In this document: piece after piece, positions 32,016 to 58,524 of the stretch
Layout of the letters: the number at the start of each line of letters is the position of its first letter
How positions within the stretch are numbered: position 1 is the stretch's first letter
Source of the DNA: a virus
IMG/VR virus record: IMGVR_UViG_3300046782_000589
DNA: 64,000 nt
Reading direction: 5' to 3' (one strand)
Position numbers and translations under genes: made by a program
The notes under the pieces: model-generated
Told to the model about the DNA's origin: nothing
Seen by the model: only the letters and a program-made list of their open reading frames with translations
Database searches by the model: none

Positions 32016-32042
32016 GTGCGCTTCTTTCTCTAACTTGTAAAT

Positions 32043-32480
32043 TTACACCTGCGCTGCCACCGGGTCAAGCGGCTTGCTGTCGGAAGGCAGGATGATATTG
32101 CCCGACTCGCGCACCTCGATGTCGCACGCCATCGCCACGGCGCGCTCCGCGGTGGCGCCGGGAGAGCGCTCCCAGCCGGGCAGCAGCAGCACGATCTGGG
32201 CGTTGTCGATGATCCAGAGGATCTCGTCCTTCAGCGCTTCCCTGCGCGCCCACTTGCGGCTCTCCTTGTCCAGGCCAAGCAAGGTTTCAAGGTCACCGTA
32301 CATGTCGCGAAGGTGTTCGGCCGGGCTGAACACCTCGGCCCCCTCGGCACGCAACTTTTTGGCCACGTAGTCGAACAGCGGCATATTCCAATTGCCGCCG
32401 GCTGACTCCATCGGCCCGGCGATGTAGATGCGAAGGGGTCCACCCGGCGCGTGTTCCATTTTCATACTCGTCATTTGCAT
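32043..32480 (-). CDS. DUF4406-like protein (nucleoside deoxyribosyltransferase-like fold)
   Basis: RIYIAGPM...FSPAE...LLPGWERSPGATAERAVA. Confidence 0.8.
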   Translation of the reverse strand: MQMTSMKMEHAPGGPLRIYIAGPMESAGGNWNMPLFDYVAKKLRAEGAEVFSPAEHLRDMYGDLETLLGLDKESRKWARREALKDEILWIIDNAQIVLLLPGWERSPGATAERAVAMACDIEVRESGNIILPSDSKPLDPVAAQV

Positions 32481-34393
32481 ACTCCATAATTTGCCCCGGA
32501 GCCTATCTCCACGGCCAGCGGCAGACCCGGCAGCCAGTCCGGCACCCGGGTCATTTCCTCAGAAATTATTGCCTTGGATTCTATCACATTGTCGTTCGGC
32601 ACCAAGAATACGAGCTCGTCGTGCGCCTGCAAGACAAACCTCAAGCCGCGATCGGCGAGCCGGACGGCAGCCTGCATCACCACGATGCGGGCGAGCGCCT
32701 GCGTGATGTTTTCGAGCAGCTTGGCGCCGTACAGACGCACATCGTTGCGCTCGTAGCGCAGGGTCATTTTGTTGGGGAGTCCTATTTGGCCACTCTTGAA
32801 GGTAACCGGATCCCATTTAGCGAATTGAGTGTCGTTGGTGCTGTTGATGACATCGGCCAGATAGCGGTCCAGCCGGCGCCAGGCCTGCGGGATGGCCGGG
32901 TACAGCTTCCGATAGACGCCGACCGTGTACTCGGCCACGCGCTCGTCGAAGATCCCCTCCAGCGATATGCCAGCCTGCCGTGCCTGCGTGGTCACCATCT
33001 GGAAGTAGCGGTCGTGGCCGCAGCCGTAGCCCAGCCCCAGGATGGCGGTCTTGCCGAGGAACCGCTCGTGCGGGTTGTCCTTCTTGGTGACACGACGGTC
33101 GAACACGCGCGAGGCGAACTGGGCATAGACGTCCTCGCCGTCGCGGAACGACTCGATCAGGTCGGCCTGTCCGCACACCACCGCCACGATGCGCGCCTCG
33201 ATCTGGGCGAGGTCGGCCGTGATCATGGTCTGTCCGGACGGCGCCAGCAGCGCCTCGCGCAGCTTCGACTTCGCCTTGTCGCGCGGCAGGTTCTGCATGT
33301 TCAAACCCCACTCGCCCGACAGCCGGCCGGTATGGGCGCCGCCGTAGCGCAGTGCGACCGGCAGCAGCGCGCCGTTCCCGCGCAGTTCTCGCGCAGTTCC
33401 CGCGCAGTTCTGCGCAGTTCCCGCGCAGTTCTGCGCTGTTCCCGCGCCGTTCCACGGCAGGCTGGCGATCTTGATGAACTTCTGCGCGCGCGTCTCCTCG
33501 ATCGTGCTCTTGTGCGACAGCCGCGCCATCGCCAGCGTCTGCACCTGGTAGTTGGTGTCGTCGTCCGGGGAGCGGTCGTATTCGAGCAGCTTGGACATGA
33601 ACGGATCGGACTTGGAGAACTGCGGGATCCACTTGCCCGTGGGTGAGGTCTTGTGCTCGATCTCGACCCCGAGCCGCTCCAGCGTCTGCTTGAACTGGGC
33701 GGTACTCATCAGCGCGGCGCGGTCGTAGCCGCACTCGCGCAGGATGCGCTCCTTGCGCTGCAGCACGTCGACCAGATTGTCCTGCAGCAGCGGCACGTCG
33801 GCGTGCAGGGTGGGCTGCACCGCGGCGCGCAGCACCAGGTCCATGACCCTGCGCTCCTCCTGCGGAAACTCCTTGGACAGCGTCAGGTAGATCTGCATGC
33901 ACAGCCGGGCGTCCTGCAGGGCGTAGGTCTGGAACTCGCCCCACAGCCCGGCGCGCTTGATGCCGGCGGCATCCAGCCCCTTAACCCTGGGCAGGATGTC
34001 ACCCTTGCTGTCGTGGCCGAACAGCTCCTTGGCCACGGCACCGAGGCTGTAGCGTTTGTAGCTGCGCAGCGCGCGCGCCATCCCGAGCGTGTCCTGCAGC
34101 CGGCCGGCGACCCAATTGTAGCGCCACGCCAGGATGGAGAGGTCAAACAGCGCGTTGTGCGAGCAGCACACCGTCTCCTCGGCCGGGTACTTCGACAGGA
34201 ATCGGGGGATGTCCTCTGGCATGACGATCCTGGGAGCGTCCCACTTGATGTCGTAGACCGCCAGGAGCAGCGTCTGGTAGCGCTTGTCGAGGATGTACTC
34301 GGGCGGGCTCATCCGTCGCAGCGAGTACTCGGAATCATAAAAGGTCTCGAAATCCACAAATAAAAATTGCTTAAAAGTACCTTGCCTTGCCAT
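32471..34393 (-). CDS. polA: DNA polymerase, family A
   Basis: Exo I VDFET; motif A TADLAQIEAR; motif B RFLGKTAILGLGYG; motif C AHDEL. Start reassigned to the ATG at 34393 because the upstream 55 codons are translated repeat array. Confidence 0.9.
   Translation of the reverse strand: MARQGTFKQFLFVDFETFYDSEYSLRRMSPPEYILDKRYQTLLLAVYDIKWDAPRIVMPEDIPRFLSKYPAEETVCCSHNALFDLSILAWRYNWVAGRLQDTLGMARALRSYKRYSLGAVAKELFGHDSKGDILPRVKGLDAAGIKRAGLWGEFQTYALQDARLCMQIYLTLSKEFPQEERRVMDLVLRAAVQPTLHADVPLLQDNLVDVLQRKERILRECGYDRAALMSTAQFKQTLERLGVEIEHKTSPTGKWIPQFSKSDPFMSKLLEYDRSPDDDTNYQVQTLAMARLSHKSTIEETRAQKFIKIASLPWNGAGTAQNCAGTAQNCAGTARELRGNGALLPVALRYGGAHTGRLSGEWGLNMQNLPRDKAKSKLREALLAPSGQTMITADLAQIEARIVAVVCGQADLIESFRDGEDVYAQFASRVFDRRVTKKDNPHERFLGKTAILGLGYGCGHDRYFQMVTTQARQAGISLEGIFDERVAEYTVGVYRKLYPAIPQAWRRLDRYLADVINSTNDTQFAKWDPVTFKSGQIGLPNKMTLRYERNDVRLYGAKLLENITQALARIVVMQAAVRLADRGLRFVLQAHDELVFLVPNDNVIESKAIISEEMTRVPDWLPGLPLAVEIGSGANYGVCK
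33371..33454. repeat. 10/11-bp alternating tandem repeat inside the polymerase gene
   Basis: gcgcagttct / gcgcagttccc units, about 7 copies; encodes AGTAQNC AGTAQNC AGTAREL. Confidence 0.85.
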
Positions 34394-34659
34394 GCCATGC
34401 CTCGCCTTGCCATGCCTCGCCTTGCCGTGCCTCGCCTTGCCTCGCCTAGCCGCGCCGTGCCTGACCGTGTCTCGCCACGCCCCGCAGCGCCCCGCAACGC
34501 CTTGCCCCGCCACACCCCGCCGCGCCTTGCCGCGCCCAGCCGCGCCCAGCCGCGCCAAACCTAGCCACGCCCGGCCTTACCGTACCGCGCCTTGCCGAAC
34601 CTCGCCTTGCCGCGCCCAGCCGCGCCGAGCCTTGCCTCGCCTCGCCTCGCCCGGCCGTA
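34380..34659 (-). ncRNA. GGY-NN pentamer array C (56 units), putative guide RNA
   Basis: Unbroken 5-nt phase; constant GGC/GGT (rarely GAC, TGC) plus a variable dinucleotide. The repeat is seen directly; RNA status is inferred. Confidence 0.75.
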
Positions 34660-34675
34660 AAATTTACAAATAAAC

Positions 34676-34860
34676 CCTTGCCTCGCCTAGCCGCGCCTGG
34701 CCGCGCCGGGACTCGCCAAGCCCCGCCTGGCCAAGCCGTGCCGCACCATGCCCAGCCGTGTCCAGCCGCGCCTTGCCTAGCTATGCCGTGCCGCGTCTTG
34801 CCCTGCCCCGCCTAGTCCAGCCCGGCCCCGCCAAGCCACGCCACGCCTTGCCGTGCCAAG
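34676..34860 (-). ncRNA. GGY-NN pentamer array B (37 units), putative guide RNA
   Basis: Same phased structure, bounded by AT-rich linkers. Confidence 0.75.
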
Positions 34861-34880
34861 TCTAAATTTACAAATTAAAC

Positions 34881-35085
34881 CCTTGCCTTGCCTTGTCTAG
34901 CCGCGCCGGGCCGAGCCTTGCCGGGACCTGCCCAGCCACGCCGTGCCTCGCCGCGCCCTGCCGAGCCTCGCCTCGCCCCGCCCAGCCACGCCGAACCCCG
35001 CCACGCCGAGCCCCGCCACGCCGAGCCCCGCCTTGCCTTGCCGCGCCGGGCCGAGCCGCGCCGTGCCCGGCCCTGCCGAGCCTCG
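34881..35085 (-). ncRNA. GGY-NN pentamer array A (41 units), putative guide RNA
   Basis: Begins 6 nt after the stop of the RAMP-like gene. Confidence 0.75.
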
Positions 35086-35091
35086 GCAAAC

Positions 35092-35709
35092 TTAGTCCCA
35101 ACGCTCGATGCGAAACTTTCCAAACACACCGCGGAACGTCCCAAGCCCGATCGCCCGACCGCCTTCTTCGACAAGGTTTAAGACATCCTGCTCCTTGATC
35201 TCCCTGTTAGGAAAAATATCCATTGTGAACTGGATCGACCAGTCGAGCGGCACCACCGGCCGCACCTTGGGATTGGGGATGCCCTTGTCGAGCCGCGCGA
35301 CCGAATAGTGGACATAGCAGCCAGACAGCTCGTCGCGATCGTGGTCGAACTTGCCGAACACGATCGGCTGGCCCTTGCGCATCAGCGGCACCCACGTCTC
35401 GCGAATGCTGACGAACGACAGCATCGCGTTGGCGAGGTCCTTGAACTTGCGCTTGTCACGCAAGCGTTTCGGTGCGGAATTTGTGTTGTGGGCCGACAAG
35501 AAGCTCATAATGTTGAGCGTCGGCAGACCAATAACTCTGGAATCGCCCGGAGCGAAGTACAATTTCTGCTGCGGTTCCAGCTTGGTCTGGTTGTCCCCCG
35601 GATATCTGTCGAACATGATCTCGGTCAGTCCGGTAAGAACCACGTTTCGCGTCACGATGTCCGTCGGCCGGTTGATCTTTACGGCCGCGTCTTTGGTTTT
35701 GTCGAGCAT
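35092..35709 (-). CDS. Stand-alone RAMP/Cas7-like protein (Vipr-like)
   Basis: 205 aa; N-terminal strand VVLTGLTEIMFDRY, LPTLNIMSFL helix and C-terminal Gly-rich loop GGRAIGLGTFRGVFGKF typical of RAMPs. Alternative starts at 35721 and 35733. Confidence 0.75.
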   Translation of the reverse strand: MLDKTKDAAVKINRPTDIVTRNVVLTGLTEIMFDRYPGDNQTKLEPQQKLYFAPGDSRVIGLPTLNIMSFLSAHNTNSAPKRLRDKRKFKDLANAMLSFVSIRETWVPLMRKGQPIVFGKFDHDRDELSGCYVHYSVARLDKGIPNPKVRPVVPLDWSIQFTMDIFPNREIKEQDVLNLVEEGGRAIGLGTFRGVFGKFRIERWD

Positions 35710-35747
35710 GATCAGATCCATCCTTGTTTTCACTTGCCATGAAGTTT

Positions 35748-35867
35748 CCTCGCCTTGCCTCGCCCAGCCACGCCACGCCATGACTTGCCTTGCCGCGCCG
35801 TGCCGGGCCGAGCCGCGCCAAGCCGCGCCAAGCCGGGACTAGCCCCGCCATGCCTTGCCGAGCCAAA
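35748..35867 (-). ncRNA. GGY-NN pentamer array D (24 units), upstream of the RAMP-like gene
   Basis: Same phased structure; begins 3 nt after the stop of the upstream gene. Confidence 0.75.
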
Positions 35868-35870
35868 AAC

Positions 35871-36110
35871 TCACCTTGGTACCCAGCGATTGAACCCCTC
35901 GCGCTTGAGCAAACCCTCTCGCGCCATCTGGCTCAGATGGTACCAGGACTGTTCCCATCCGCCGATCTCGTTTGCCTGCTGGTTGGTGATGAAGCCTTTA
36001 CGCCTGGCGACCTTGAGCACGCGCTCGCGCGCCTCGTCGACCGCCTTGCGCTTGCGCCCGTTGTTCTGCTTGGCCTTCTTCGTCTTCTTCGTCTTCTTCG
36101 TCTTTGCCAT
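35871..36110 (-). CDS. Small basic putative winged-helix DNA-binding protein
   Basis: AAAGGAG RBS; Lys-rich N-terminus; GFITNQQA..I...YHLSQMAREGLL pattern. Confidence 0.6.
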   Translation of the reverse strand: MAKTKKTKKTKKAKQNNGRKRKAVDEARERVLKVARRKGFITNQQANEIGGWEQSWYHLSQMAREGLLKREGFNRWVPR

Positions 36111-36330
36111 TATTGTCTCCTTTACGCCACTGGCGCCCCAGAACCTCGATATAGTCGGGCGTCAGCCCGAACTCCTGCATCAGGGTGAGGAGCAGGGCGA
36201 CATGGTAGGGCGCACCCTCGCGCGCCCAGCGCCGGCCCGAGCGCCGCGACTTGCCGGTGAACAGCCACGCCACCTTCTGCGAGCTGACACCCAGCTCATT
36301 CAAGGCAGCCAGATACTCCGATTTGTCCAT
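35998..36330 (-). CDS. Putative HTH protein
   Basis: LNELGVSSQKVAWLFTGKSRRSGRRW resembles an XRE-like HTH; 3' end overlaps the next gene. Confidence 0.5.
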   Translation of the reverse strand: MDKSEYLAALNELGVSSQKVAWLFTGKSRRSGRRWAREGAPYHVALLLTLMQEFGLTPDYIEVLGRQWRKGDNNGKDEEDEEDEEGQAEQRAQAQGGRRGARARAQGRQA

Positions 36331-38426: not shown

Positions 38427-38522
38427 AGGGTAGTCTCCTTGTGTTGCAACGCGACGAGTGTTCCACGCCATGTCAAGCAATGTCCAGTAAATTTACAACT
38501 CATTTTTTGGACAGGATCTCAG

Positions 38523-41680: not shown

Positions 41681-43215
41681 GATCTAAATTTACATGTTAC
41701 TCCAGCGCGACCGGCGACTCGTCGTCCCAGGAGTGGCCGTCGTTCATCGGGTTGAACTGCACGCAGCCGCTCCACTCCTTCAGCTCCCTTGTGACCTCGG
41801 CGTTGTCGGTCAGCAGGTAGATGCAGCCGTCCTTGGCGTCAGCAAGGTGGTTGTCGGTCACGACGGCTCTCGTGCCGGCCGGCACGATGCAGTAGGGGTA
41901 GATGTCCCAGTCGCCGGGGAACACCAGCATGGTGCCCCACGGCACCTCGCGCAGTTGCGCCCATGTCAGGGTCATGCCGGCACCTTCAGCAGCGCGCGGT
42001 CGCGATAGCATGCGTTGAGCAGGACCAGCCGCACCTCGGCGCCCTGCATCATCTCCCTGACCTGTGCCTCCGGGTACATGCGCCTGTGGCGCATCAGGCC
42101 CGCGAGCAGCGCGGCCTGCGCTTGGCTCTCGCTCTCGCCATAGGCCTCGAACGAGAAGTGGCGCGTGTCGAGCGTGGCGACGTAGACCTGCATGTCACTT
42201 CCTCCCCAGTGCCGGCATTGCGATCTCCCACGCCTTGTTCCACAGCGTCACGTCGGCATCGTCGTCGATGTCAGGCGCGCGCCGCGCGACTTCGCGGAAC
42301 GCCGCGTCCATGGCCATGTTGGCATCGCAGTAGTCGTGGCTGTGGCAGACGTGCGCGTTGTGCTCCGCTTCGTTGCGGATGCACATGTCGAGCCACTCGG
42401 TCTGCGTCAGCCAGTCGCGCAGGACGGCAACGAACCGCTCCGCGAGGATGTCGGCAGCGTTGTCGGGCAGCGGCTTGTCCTCGCGTTCGCGCACGATCTG
42501 CGTGGCGTAGCCCCAGCCCAGCGAGTATAGCTCCTGCCCCTGCGGGCCAAGCGGATCGCACGGGTTGATGCCCATCAGGTCTTCGACCTCGTCGCCGACA
42601 GCCAAGACATCGATGGCGCTGGCGTACATCCAATCACGGATGCGCTCGCGTTCGGCAGCGGTCACCGCCACGTTGTCGAACCCGTTCCACGTCGAGCCGT
42701 GGGCGAAGCCGTCGAATTCCGGGCTGTCGTCAAAAGTAAACTTGCACGGTTGCATGGTCGTCCTCCTCGTGGGTGTCATACGGCATGCCACAGGCCTCCA
42801 GCCACTCAAGGTCGCCGAGCGAGCGGATGCGGCGCATCAGCGCGTCGTACAGCATGCCGGGCGTGACATCGTCGCCGCTCTCGTGCTGGCTGTAGACCTC
42901 GAACGCGATGCTGTAGGCGTGATTGTAGGTGACCATGTCACGCCCCCTTCTGGTCGTCGGGCTGCCAGTTGAAATAGCGGCGCGGGCTATGGGTGAATTC
43001 GAGCGAGCCGTTGCGGCCGTCAGCCTTGCGCCGCACGATCACGAACGGCGCGAGGAAGGCGAGCACGGTGTACTGCGCGGACATCTCGTCGGTCGTCATA
43101 AGGTCGACCGCCTGCGCGGCATCGCTTAGCGGTTGATCGGTTTCGAGCATCTCGCGGCGTATCGACTCGGTAGGATCGTGGGGCATGGTGTTCTCCGGTT
43201 GCTGGTATTGCTGAT

Positions 43216-58251: not shown

Positions 58252-58524
58252 ATGAAGACGTGTCCTTGCTGCGGCCAGTCCCTGCCCGAGAAGCGTCTGG
58301 GCGTGCGCCTGACGCCGCTCAAGGCGCGCATCTTCGATGCCGTCAGGCTTGCCGGCGACGACGGCGTCATGACCGATGACTTGTACAATGAAATTTACGC
58401 TGACCGGCGGTGCGAGATCAGCACGCTCAAGGCACACATCTGGCAGATCAACGATGTGATCGCCGACGAGGGTTATCGGATCAGCAACAAGAAGTTCGGC
58501 TACGTGTTGAGGAGGCTGTCATGA
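58252..58524 (+). CDS. OmpR-type winged-helix protein with N-terminal CPCC
   Basis: LTPLKARIF...LKAHIWQIN...KFGYVL. Confidence 0.65.
   Translation: MKTCPCCGQSLPEKRLGVRLTPLKARIFDAVRLAGDDGVMTDDLYNEIYADRRCEISTLKAHIWQINDVIADEGYRISNKKFGYVLRRLS

What the first reader, a model, noticed from the sequence alone, without database searches (positions are those of the whole stretch)
34657..34883. Conserved AT-rich linker separates the arrays
On the minus strand the A/B linker is GGGTTTAATTTGTAAATTTAGAC and the B/C linker is GGGTTTATTTGTAAATTTTAC. They are nearly identical and contain the TGTAAATTT motif found at gene junctions elsewhere. They are candidates for RNA processing sites (AU-rich, RNase E-like) or for protein-binding sites that define individual guides.
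Basis: partly seen in the sequence, partly recalled or inferred. Interest (0 to 1): 0.6.

Follow-up and report, generated by a model that had tools for sequence, protein, structure and literature searches.

The report
Spacers between phage VIPR guide arrays
The two near-identical AT-rich stretches are the boundary elements between guide-RNA arrays of a phage VIPR system (a CRISPR-related silencing system described in 2026), and similar elements occur in related phages, so they most likely mark where one guide ends and the next begins.

Summary
On the minus strand, GGGTTTAATTTGTAAATTTAGAC (34860-34882) and GGGTTTATTTGTAAATTTTAC (34657-34677) separate three unbroken GGC-NN pentamer arrays of 41, 36 and 56 units. 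These lie between a Vipr (Cas7-like) gene and polA.

The linkers belong to a conserved family. Thirty-two linkers from 13 related Vipr loci share the layout GGCRA-GGCRA-GGR, then about 20 U-rich nt (..AUUUGUnnAUUU..), then the next GGC. A sequence model built only from the relatives ranks the two window linkers first and second in the 64 kb (E 3e-7 and 4e-5). It scores none of the other TGTAAATTT sites.

The linkers have no consensus fold and no Rfam match. They show no promoter or terminator pattern and do not keep the pentamer register.

Best reading: they are the short unstructured 3' tail or spacer of each guide module. They end the Vipr coat and stay exposed to host RNases. The RNase E-type RNWUU motif is twice as frequent as in shuffles. 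Cleavage itself is untested.

The shared TGTAAATTT(AG) gene-junction motif is real (25 matches against 3.2 expected) but specific to this phage lineage, so it is either chance or a local co-option.

This scan has already found VIPR arrays on other DNA, with other kinds of separator. I class this as a new variant of a known kind.

The parts
35871..36110 (-). 79-aa Lys-rich, winged-helix-like gene. It is a phage backbone gene, not a VIPR accessory gene.
   Evidence: A homolog (44% identity) directly abuts polA in the VIPR-less relative L002. It is found next to vipr in none of 129 vipr loci. It gives only weak AbiEi_4 and KOW Pfam hits.
35750..35864 (-). Array D: 23 GGC-NN units upstream of vipr, ending GGCGA-GGCAA-GGCGA-GGA.
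   Evidence: Its 3' end matches the first 13 positions of the linker model (E 0.14).
35092..35709 (-). vipr gene (Cas7/RAMP-like, about 205 aa). An alternative ATG lies at 35721.
   Evidence: It hits PDB 36pp_D 'SUSP1 Vipr protein' at E 1.7e-4 as a single sequence and 2.4e-6 as a profile. The AF2 model has pLDDT 90.8, and its best PDB folds are Csm3/Cmr4. There are 2424 homologs.
34883..35087 (-). Array A: 41 units. It starts 4 nt after the vipr stop codon.
34858..34882 (-). Linker 1 (A/B): GGGTTTAATTTGTAAATTTAGAC(TT).
   Evidence: The linker model built from relatives scores it E 4e-5. It carries the 11-mer TGTAAATTTAG, then CTTG after one more base (TGTAAATTTAG-A-CTTGG), much as at 41686, 44893 and 46180.
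34678..34857 (-). Array B: 36 units.
34657..34677 (-). Linker 2 (B/C): GGGTTTATTTGTAAATTTTAC.
   Evidence: It is the best hit of the linker model in the window (E 3e-7).
34377..34656 (-). Array C: 56 units. Its last units contain the in-frame polA start codon (ATG at 34393-34391).
34341..34376 (-). Third, degenerate linker-like tail (..TTTTTATTTGTGGATTTCGAGAC..). It is also polA codons 7-18 (FKQFLFVDFETF).
   Evidence: The linker model scores it E 0.006. L002 has the same peptide, FLFVDFET, written in GC-rich codons. GC3 of the first 20 polA codons is 0.35, against 0.88 for the rest of the gene.
32471..34393 (-). Family A DNA polymerase gene, directly downstream of the arrays.
   Evidence: Pfam DNA_pol_A at 4e-31 and phrog_17 at 1.7e-68. 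It is 66% identical to the polA of L002.
32036..32047 (.). Perfect palindrome TGTAAATTTACA at the DUF4406/exonuclease gene junction. It is one of seven non-linker loci with the exact 9-mer; the others are at 38489, 41686, 43236, 44893, 46180 and 58244.
   Evidence: A TAAATTTACA site sits just upstream of a gene start downstream of polA in L002; that this gene is the exonuclease ortholog is my inference and was not tested. None of these loci matches the linker model.

Best explanation
The two linkers are the inter-guide boundary elements of a VIPR locus. Each array is a module made of a variable GGY-NN tract, two or three constant GGCRA units, GG-purine, and about 20 nt of unstructured U-rich RNA. 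The cassette (array D, vipr, arrays A, B, C) is transcribed with the phage replication operon. Vipr protomers coat the GGY-NN tract. The coat cannot extend into the linker, which lacks GGY and starts with GG-purine. The naked AU-rich linker is then cut or trimmed by host single-strand RNases, with RNase E the leading candidate, and this releases the individual guide RNPs. Shown here: the anatomy, the conservation of the linker across the clade, the lack of structure, the absence of promoter or terminator patterns, and the co-linearity with vipr and polA. Inferred: that the linker stops the filament, and that cleavage occurs there and by which enzyme.
For: The locus is a VIPR system: the protein matches SUSP1 Vipr and has a Cas7 fold, and four same-strand GGC-NN arrays flank it. 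Thirty-two U-rich linkers from 13 loci with Vipr at least 70% identical align to one consensus. Model R1, built without the window, ranks linker 2 (E 3e-7), linker 1 (E 4e-5), the end of array C (E 0.006) and the end of array D (E 0.14) as its four best hits in 64 kb. Of 110 array ends, 72-81% have GGCAA or GGCGA in the second- and third-last units (about 20% internally; 47% in the last unit), and 48 continue with GGA or GGG. The cryo-EM preprint states that the Y3 pocket sterically excludes purines. Linker lengths modulo 5 are spread over all classes, so the register is reset at each linker. Arrays start 0-10 nt after the vipr stop codon, and no promoter-like site and only one weak terminator-like hairpin inside vipr is found in the cassette, so one transcript must be divided. 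RNWUU sites number 82 against 40.7 +/- 6.1 in shuffles, and 35 of 39 linkers have at least one. The orthologous loci L183 and L184 differ by a whole module of about 7 units plus a linker, while their shared linker is 26/28 identical and the visible unit differences fall in the NN positions. Tail type changes with Vipr clade, with hairpins or long structured tails at 48-60% identity.
Against: There are no RNA-end data, so cleavage, the enzyme and the mature guide lengths are all untested. The enriched RNWUU count comes from related sequences and is not a set of independent observations. Arrays of 36-56 units are far longer than the 9-16 repeats of characterised vrRNAs, so further internal boundaries may exist. 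Internal GGCRA runs are only weakly enriched (106 against 93 +/- 6.5). Linker 1 carries the exact 11-mer TGTAAATTTAG followed closely by CTTG, as three other sites in this phage do (one of them just upstream of the -35 of a strong sigma-70-like promoter), which suggests an added DNA-level role. No target was found whose extent could confirm that one array equals one guide.
Confidence: 0.6

Rival explanations
1. In this phage the linkers, above all linker 1, also act at the DNA level. They would be copies of the lineage's TGTAAATTTA(G/C) site, which could be a promoter element or the operator of a phage regulator. That would give arrays B and C and polA their own start or control point inside the inserted cassette. 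This reading does not exclude the RNA-level role.
For: The 9-mer is strongly enriched and lies at gene junctions. The exact 11-mer TGTAAATTTAG followed after 1-3 nt by CTTG occurs at linker 1, 41686, 44893 and 46180. At 41686 it lies just upstream of TTGACT-17-CATAAT, a 10/12 match. TAAATT is scored as a -10 with a -35-like hexamer at four sites. Both motif copies in the VIPR-less relative L002 are also TGTAAATTTAG. Given the linker family consensus TGTnnATTTnn, an exact 11-mer by chance is unlikely; my rough estimate is 0.01.
Against: The scan reports no promoter-like site at either linker on either strand. No -10 follows CTTGGC in the array. Linker 2 lacks the CTTG. Linkers of relatives lack the word, are only 14-33 nt long, and in the complete phage G001 the linker core is confined to the VIPR locus. 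The orientation of the motif relative to transcription varies.
Confidence: 0.17
2. The linkers are scars with no function, left at the junctions when array modules were duplicated.
For: The two linkers are 87% identical and could be recent duplicates. Arrays clearly evolve by in-register recombination.
Against: The same primary-sequence consensus persists across 13 loci whose Vipr proteins differ by up to 30% and whose NN content differs. The polA N-terminal codons that follow array C use AT-ending synonyms that recreate the linker word.
Confidence: 0.08
3. The linkers are structured 3' tails, a hairpin or pseudoknot cap like the roughly 40-nt tail of SUSP1 vrRNAs.
For: Position and constancy match: an invariant element directly 3' of each repeat tract. 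Weak AU/GU hairpins can be drawn.
Against: Fold z-scores are -0.88 and -0.63. RNAalifold predicts 0 pairs on 30 relatives' linkers. The elements are only 21-25 nt long.
Confidence: 0.05
4. The region is not RNA-guide related. It could be coding sequence, a replication origin next to polA, or a terminator.
For: ORFs are open in several frames across the arrays. The region is AT-rich and lies beside the polymerase gene.
Against: The period is 5, not 3, and only TAG can arise as a stop inside GGCNN, which explains the open frames. Among 129 vipr loci only one other (L211) has a polA-like match next to vipr, so the element travels with vipr. No terminator pattern is found.
Confidence: 0.02

Closest known systems
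Type II VIPR of Escherichia phage SUSP1 and the Pseudomonas fulva prophage (bioRxiv 10.64898/2026.04.26.720920 and .720927)
   Same: There is a Vipr RAMP protein. GGY-NN tandem repeats lie on the same strand upstream and downstream of vipr. An invariant element follows each repeat tract. Several guides stand in a row downstream of the gene.
   Different: Arrays here have 23-56 units (median 25 and up to 96 in the clade), against 9-16. The tail is 21-25 nt, U-rich and unstructured, against about 40 nt with a hairpin and pseudoknot. Two or three constant GGCRA units precede the tail. No vap gene is adjacent. Vipr similarity is limited to the C-terminal ~50 residues at sequence level (E 2.4e-6 by profile).
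Other VIPR array architectures named in the preprint: staggered arrays, hammerhead-interspersed arrays and single vrRNAs
   Same: Like these, it is an alternative way of delimiting guides within one transcript.
   Different: No ribozyme is present (0 Rfam matches). The arrays are separated by linkers rather than overlapping by 1 nt. I could not read the figures showing types I and III-VII, so this linker type may be drawn there without being described in the text.
CRISPR repeats processed by Cas6 or RNase III
   Same: A conserved element alternates with variable guide sequence, and modules are gained and lost as units.
   Different: There is no palindromic repeat, no dedicated nuclease gene and no acquisition genes. 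The guide itself is a periodic GGY-NN tract.
RNase E sites in polycistronic RNAs (consensus RN|WUU, from established work in Salmonella; cited from my own knowledge)
   Same: The linkers are single-stranded AU-rich segments carrying GGAUU, GAUUU or GGUUU words, flanked by protected RNA.
   Different: Only a sequence resemblance is shown. The host is unknown and no cleavage data exist.

Membership tests
VIPR system (Vipr + vrRNA) | A Vipr protein: a small RAMP/Cas7-like fold related to SUSP1 Vipr | tested here: met
   PDB 36pp_D 'SUSP1 Vipr protein' at E 1.7e-4 and 2.4e-6 with a profile. AF2 model pLDDT 90.8. Top Foldseek hits are Csm3/Cmr4, E about 1e-5.
VIPR system (Vipr + vrRNA) | Tandem GGY-NN pentamers with hypervariable NN flanking vipr on the same strand | tested here: met
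   156 units in four arrays. Positions 1-3 are G, G, C in 131, 127 and 127 of the 140 five-base words tiled across arrays A-C, a tiling that also takes in seven non-array words after array C. Positions 4-5 are mixed. No indels.
VIPR system (Vipr + vrRNA) | An invariant 3' element (tail) after each repeat tract | tested here: met
   A conserved handle plus linker is recovered by a model built from relatives only.
VIPR system (Vipr + vrRNA) | vrRNAs are expressed and bound by Vipr | not testable with these tools
   No RNA or protein data are available.
VIPR system (Vipr + vrRNA) | NN strings match natural targets under the 1-nt skip rule | tested here: inconclusive
   No hit in 1.8 Mb of held sequence. 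Three 8-9-unit patterns scanned in IMG/VR gave only non-extending chance hits.
Type II VIPR (SUSP1-like) | 9-16 repeats per vrRNA | tested here: not met
   Arrays between boundaries have 23, 41, 36 and 56 units.
Type II VIPR (SUSP1-like) | A roughly 40-nt structured (hairpin and pseudoknot) tail | tested here: not met
   Linkers are 21-25 nt, with fold z-scores of -0.88 and -0.63. No consensus pairs are predicted.
Type II VIPR (SUSP1-like) | An adjacent vap1 accessory gene | tested here: not met
   The upstream 79-aa gene is a backbone gene, also present next to polA in VIPR-less L002 and absent from the other vipr loci.
Ribozyme-interspersed VIPR arrays | A hammerhead ribozyme between guides | tested here: not met
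   0 Rfam matches at E <= 1 over 34200-36200.
RNase E cleavage site | A single-stranded AU-rich segment carrying RN|WUU | tested here: met
   82 motifs in 39 linkers against 40.7 +/- 6.1 in shuffles. The linkers are unstructured. This is sequence only; cleavage is untested.
Sigma-70 promoter | -35 and -10 hexamers at 16-18 nt spacing | tested here: not met
   No promoter-like site at either linker on either strand.
Intrinsic terminator | A GC-rich hairpin followed by a U run | tested here: not met
   None in the arrays or linkers.

The most novel reading that the evidence does not exclude
A large Vipr clade makes its guides with no ribozyme, no structured cap and no dedicated nuclease. A linear U-rich linker plus a constant GGCAA-GGCRA handle sets the end of very long Vipr filaments (25-96 units), and host RNase E cuts the bare linker. 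In this phage the linker has additionally taken on the lineage's TGTAAATTTAG regulatory word, which ties guide and polymerase expression to the phage's own transcription programme.
Probability: 0.2. Interest if true: 0.65.

Novelty: new variant of a known kind. Interest (0 to 1): 0.48.

Why it matters
The three VIPR preprints I could read do not describe how vrRNAs are cut out of their transcripts. This clade has 2424 detectable homologs. It offers a simple, testable case: a conserved linear linker and a constant 3' handle, inside an operon where one transcript must yield an mRNA for Vipr, several guides and an mRNA for the DNA polymerase. Knowing the rule that ends a Vipr filament, and what trims the RNA, would help annotate guides in metagenomes and design multiplexed synthetic arrays. 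It would also settle whether guides of 36-56 units (108-168 bp of target) really exist.

Tried and rejected
1. I looked for targets that would show how far each guide extends. The NN strings of arrays A-C were slid under the 1-nt skip rule over the window and 1.8 Mb of fetched loci. All 615 arrays on hand were also indexed against the same sequence. Nothing matched (my array D register was wrong and that row is void).
2. Three IMG/VR pattern scans (array B units 1-9 and 21-28, array C units 12-19) gave 1, 2 and 5 hits. None extended beyond the seed, so they are chance matches.
3. I decoded the NN strings as codon positions 1-2. The peptides are too ambiguous for the word-based protein search, so I did not search them.
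I fetched relatives with the search for related loci instead.
5. No whole genome is held for the window.
6. Structured tail: rejected.
7. Ribozyme: rejected.
8. Promoter or terminator at the linkers: rejected.
9. Internal GGCRA handles subdividing the long arrays: only weakly enriched, so left open.
10. A CsrA-type GGA site: considered, but the window's linkers start GGG, so it was dropped.
11. The paper's supplements are not held, so I could not assign one of the seven VIPR types.

Full report
**Observation.** On the minus strand the two quoted strings lie at 34860-34882 and 34657-34677. They agree in 20 of 23 aligned columns. They are 76% A+T, in a 1-kb window that is 68% G+C. They separate three arrays of 41, 36 and 56 units in which GGC recurs every 5 nt with no indel. 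Across the 140 five-base words I tiled over the three arrays (a tiling that runs seven words past array C), positions 1-3 are G, G, C in 131, 127 and 127, while positions 4-5 are mixed. A fourth array of 23 units lies at 35750-35864, upstream of the neighbouring gene. TGTAAATTT with up to one mismatch occurs 25 times against 3.2 expected. The exact copies outside the linkers are at 32036/39, 38489, 41686, 43236, 44893, 46180 and 58244. Five of them fall at junctions of my GC3-based gene calls. 44893 and 46180 lie in a lower-GC stretch where that filter calls no genes, so only raw ORF ends place them.

**What the locus is.** The 205-209-aa gene at 35092-35709 matches PDB 36pp_D 'SUSP1 Vipr protein' at E 1.7e-4 alone and 2.4e-6 as a 33-sequence profile. 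It folds with pLDDT 90.8 into a Cas7-like fold, and its best PDB neighbours are Csm3 and Cmr4. The preprints (10.64898/2026.04.26.720920.720927 and 2026.10.15.759431) describe Vipr filaments that coat vrRNAs made of GGY-NN repeats. In the characterised type II systems a vrRNA has 9-16 repeats followed by an invariant ~40-nt hairpin and pseudoknot tail. Other architectures are named: staggered arrays, hammerhead-interspersed arrays and single vrRNAs. I found no description of how vrRNA ends are made. Here the neighbours are a family A polymerase, a DUF4406 protein, a PD-(D/E)XK nuclease and an SNF2 helicase, which is a phage replication module.

**The cassette is an insertion.** In the relative L002 (PolA 66% identical) a homolog of the 79-aa gene abuts polA directly, and no vipr match was found in the 13.9-kb locus held. 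So array D, vipr and arrays A-C together form an inserted cassette. The 79-aa gene is a backbone gene rather than a vap accessory gene.

**The linkers belong to a conserved family.** I fetched 41 viral, 4 genomic and 80 metagenomic loci that encode Vipr relatives. Almost all carry same-strand GGY-NN arrays around vipr. In the clade with at least 70% identity there are 109 distinct arrays, with a median of 25 units and a range of 11-96. There are also 39 distinct short inter-array linkers, averaging 25 nt, 62% A+T and 42% T.
- Thirty-two of these linkers, from 13 loci, align to GGCRA-GGCRA-GGA-TTG-aTTTGTTnATTT-nC-GGC. The window's linkers fit this consensus with nn = AA.
- As an independent test I built a sequence-only model from the 30 relatives' linkers alone and searched the whole window with filters off. 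The four best hits were linker 2 (E 3e-7), linker 1 (E 4e-5), the end of array C (E 0.006) and the end of array D (E 0.14). No other TGTAAATTT site scored.
- Of 110 array ends, 72-81% have GGCAA or GGCGA in the third- and second-last units, against about 20% internally. The last unit is GGCAA or GGCGA in 47%, and one of GGCAA, GGCGA, GGCTA or GGTTT in 74%. Forty-eight ends continue with GGA or GGG.
- The orthologous loci L183 and L184 differ by a whole module of about 7 units plus a linker. Their shared 28-nt linker is 26/28 identical, and by eye the differences between matching units fall in the NN positions.
- More distant Vipr clades (48-60% identity) have other tails, either hairpins or 40-80-nt structured elements. 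The penultimate GGCAA unit persists in many of them.

**What the linkers are not.**
- They are not structured. Fold z-scores are -0.88 and -0.63, and RNAalifold predicts no pairs on the family alignment.
- They are not ribozymes or any other Rfam family.
- They are not sigma-70 promoters or intrinsic terminators. At 14-33 nt they are too short to hold a promoter.
- They do not keep the register. Linker lengths modulo 5 are 4, 7, 11, 8 and 9 across the five classes.
- They are not tied to replication. Only one other vipr locus has a polA-like match nearby.
- The open reading frames over the arrays follow from the repeat itself, because only TAG can arise as a stop in GGCNN.

**The shared TGTAAATTT word.** Relatives' linkers carry TGTTGATTT, TGTTTATTT, TATCAATTT and similar words instead. 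In the complete 40.9-kb phage that holds L133, the linker core occurs four times, all inside the VIPR locus.
- In this phage the word belongs to a palindromic site, TGTAAATTTACA. L002 carries it too, both times as TGTAAATTTAG, and one copy sits just upstream of a gene start downstream of polA, as the window's copy does before its exonuclease gene. That the two genes are orthologs is my inference; I did not test it.
- At 41686 the site lies just upstream of a strong sigma-70-like promoter that overlaps an ATGACA-N3-TGTCAT operator. Its TAAATT is scored as a -10 at four sites.
- Linker 1 shares the full 11-mer and then CTTG after one base, much as three of these sites do with 2-3 bases between. 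Given the family consensus, that is unlikely by chance (my rough estimate is about 0.01).
- I therefore keep a lineage-specific DNA-level co-option, as a regulator site or promoter element inside the inserted cassette, as a secondary and non-exclusive reading at about 0.17.

**Mechanism proposed.**
1. Shown: array A starts 4 nt after the vipr stop codon. Across the clade, arrays start 0-10 nt after it. The cassette contains no promoter pattern and only one weak terminator-like hairpin inside vipr, and polA begins inside array C. One transcript must therefore yield the vipr mRNA, the guides and the polA mRNA.
2. From the literature: each Vipr protomer binds one unit, and the Y3 pocket sterically excludes purines.
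3. Inferred: the filament ends at the constant GGCRA handle because the next triplet is GG-purine and no GGY follows. The handle may be the anchor, since in SUSP1 the 3'-proximal protomers are the ones always resolved.
4. Inferred: the bare U-rich linker is cut or trimmed by host RNases. RNWUU words, the RNase E consensus as I know it from the literature, number 82 in 39 linkers against 40.7 +/- 6.1 in shuffles, and 35 of 39 linkers have at least one. These linkers are related by descent, so this is support and not proof.
5. Supporting hint: the polA N-terminal codons after array C use AT-ending synonyms that recreate the linker word. GC3 is 0.35 there against 0.88 for the rest of the gene, and L002 writes the same peptide in GC-rich codons. 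Selection for an unstructured translation start would have the same effect.

**Comparison and novelty.** This is a member of the VIPR kind. It is not the SUSP1-like type II on three tested features: repeat number, tail length and structure, and vap. The unstructured U-rich linker with a constant GGCRA handle and very long arrays is not described in the text of the preprints I could read. Their figures and supplements are not held, so the architecture may be drawn there. This scan has already reported VIPR arrays on other DNA with other separators, including GAC-punctuated, tRNA-like and hairpin types. This one adds a further dialect. I rate it a new variant of a known kind, with interest of about 0.5. 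It gives a concrete and testable handle on vrRNA maturation, but nothing about cleavage has been shown.

**Limits.** No whole genome is held for the window, and the host is unknown.

Noticed in passing
window 34341-34393 (minus strand): polA starts at the ATG at 34393, inside the last units of array C. Its first 20 codons have GC3 of 0.35 against 0.88 for the rest of the gene. The codons for FLFVDF spell a linker-like word, while the relative L002 writes the same peptide in GC-rich codons.
   Followed up: partly
window 34394-35870 versus L002:5780-6001: Array D, vipr and arrays A-C form a cassette of about 1.5 kb inserted between a 79-aa winged-helix-like gene and polA. In VIPR-less L002 those two genes abut.
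   Followed up: yes
window 32036, 38489, 41686, 43236, 44893, 46180, 58244; L002:3953 and 8999: The palindromic site TGTAAATTTA(C/G)A lies at gene junctions, often followed after 1-3 nt by CTTG. It overlaps the start codon of a winged-helix gene at 58252. A copy sits just upstream of a gene start downstream of polA in L002, as before the window's exonuclease gene (orthology not tested). It is probably the site of a phage regulator or a promoter element.
   Followed up: partly
window 33368-33453 (inside polA): Eight copies of an 11-nt unit (GGAACTGCGCR on the coding strand) lie inside the polymerase ORF. They read as an AGTAQNC-like peptide repeat between the exonuclease and polymerase domains.
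   Followed up: no
L183:3846-4221 versus L184:991-1208: These orthologous VIPR loci differ by a whole module of about 7 units plus a linker, apparently through in-register recombination between GGCAA-GGCC units. This shows how arrays gain and lose modules.
   Followed up: partly
L177:2446-3016; L184:4-341; L127:3944-4388: Some relatives have minimal junctions between arrays: a 1-3 nt phase shift after GGTTT or GGCAG, or a 15-nt GC-rich gap. The U-rich linker can therefore be reduced almost to nothing.
   Followed up: no
L143, L144, L149-L161, L165-L168 (Vipr 38-62% identical): The penultimate unit GGCAA, followed by GGY, closes many arrays even in clades whose tails are hairpins or long structured elements. 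It may be a widely shared 3' recognition element.
   Followed up: partly
window 35740 and relatives (15-25 nt upstream of the vipr start): A conserved word of the form TT(A/C)A(A/C)CATGG(G/A)AG, containing an out-of-frame ATG, lies between the upstream array and the vipr start codon in many relatives.
   Followed up: no
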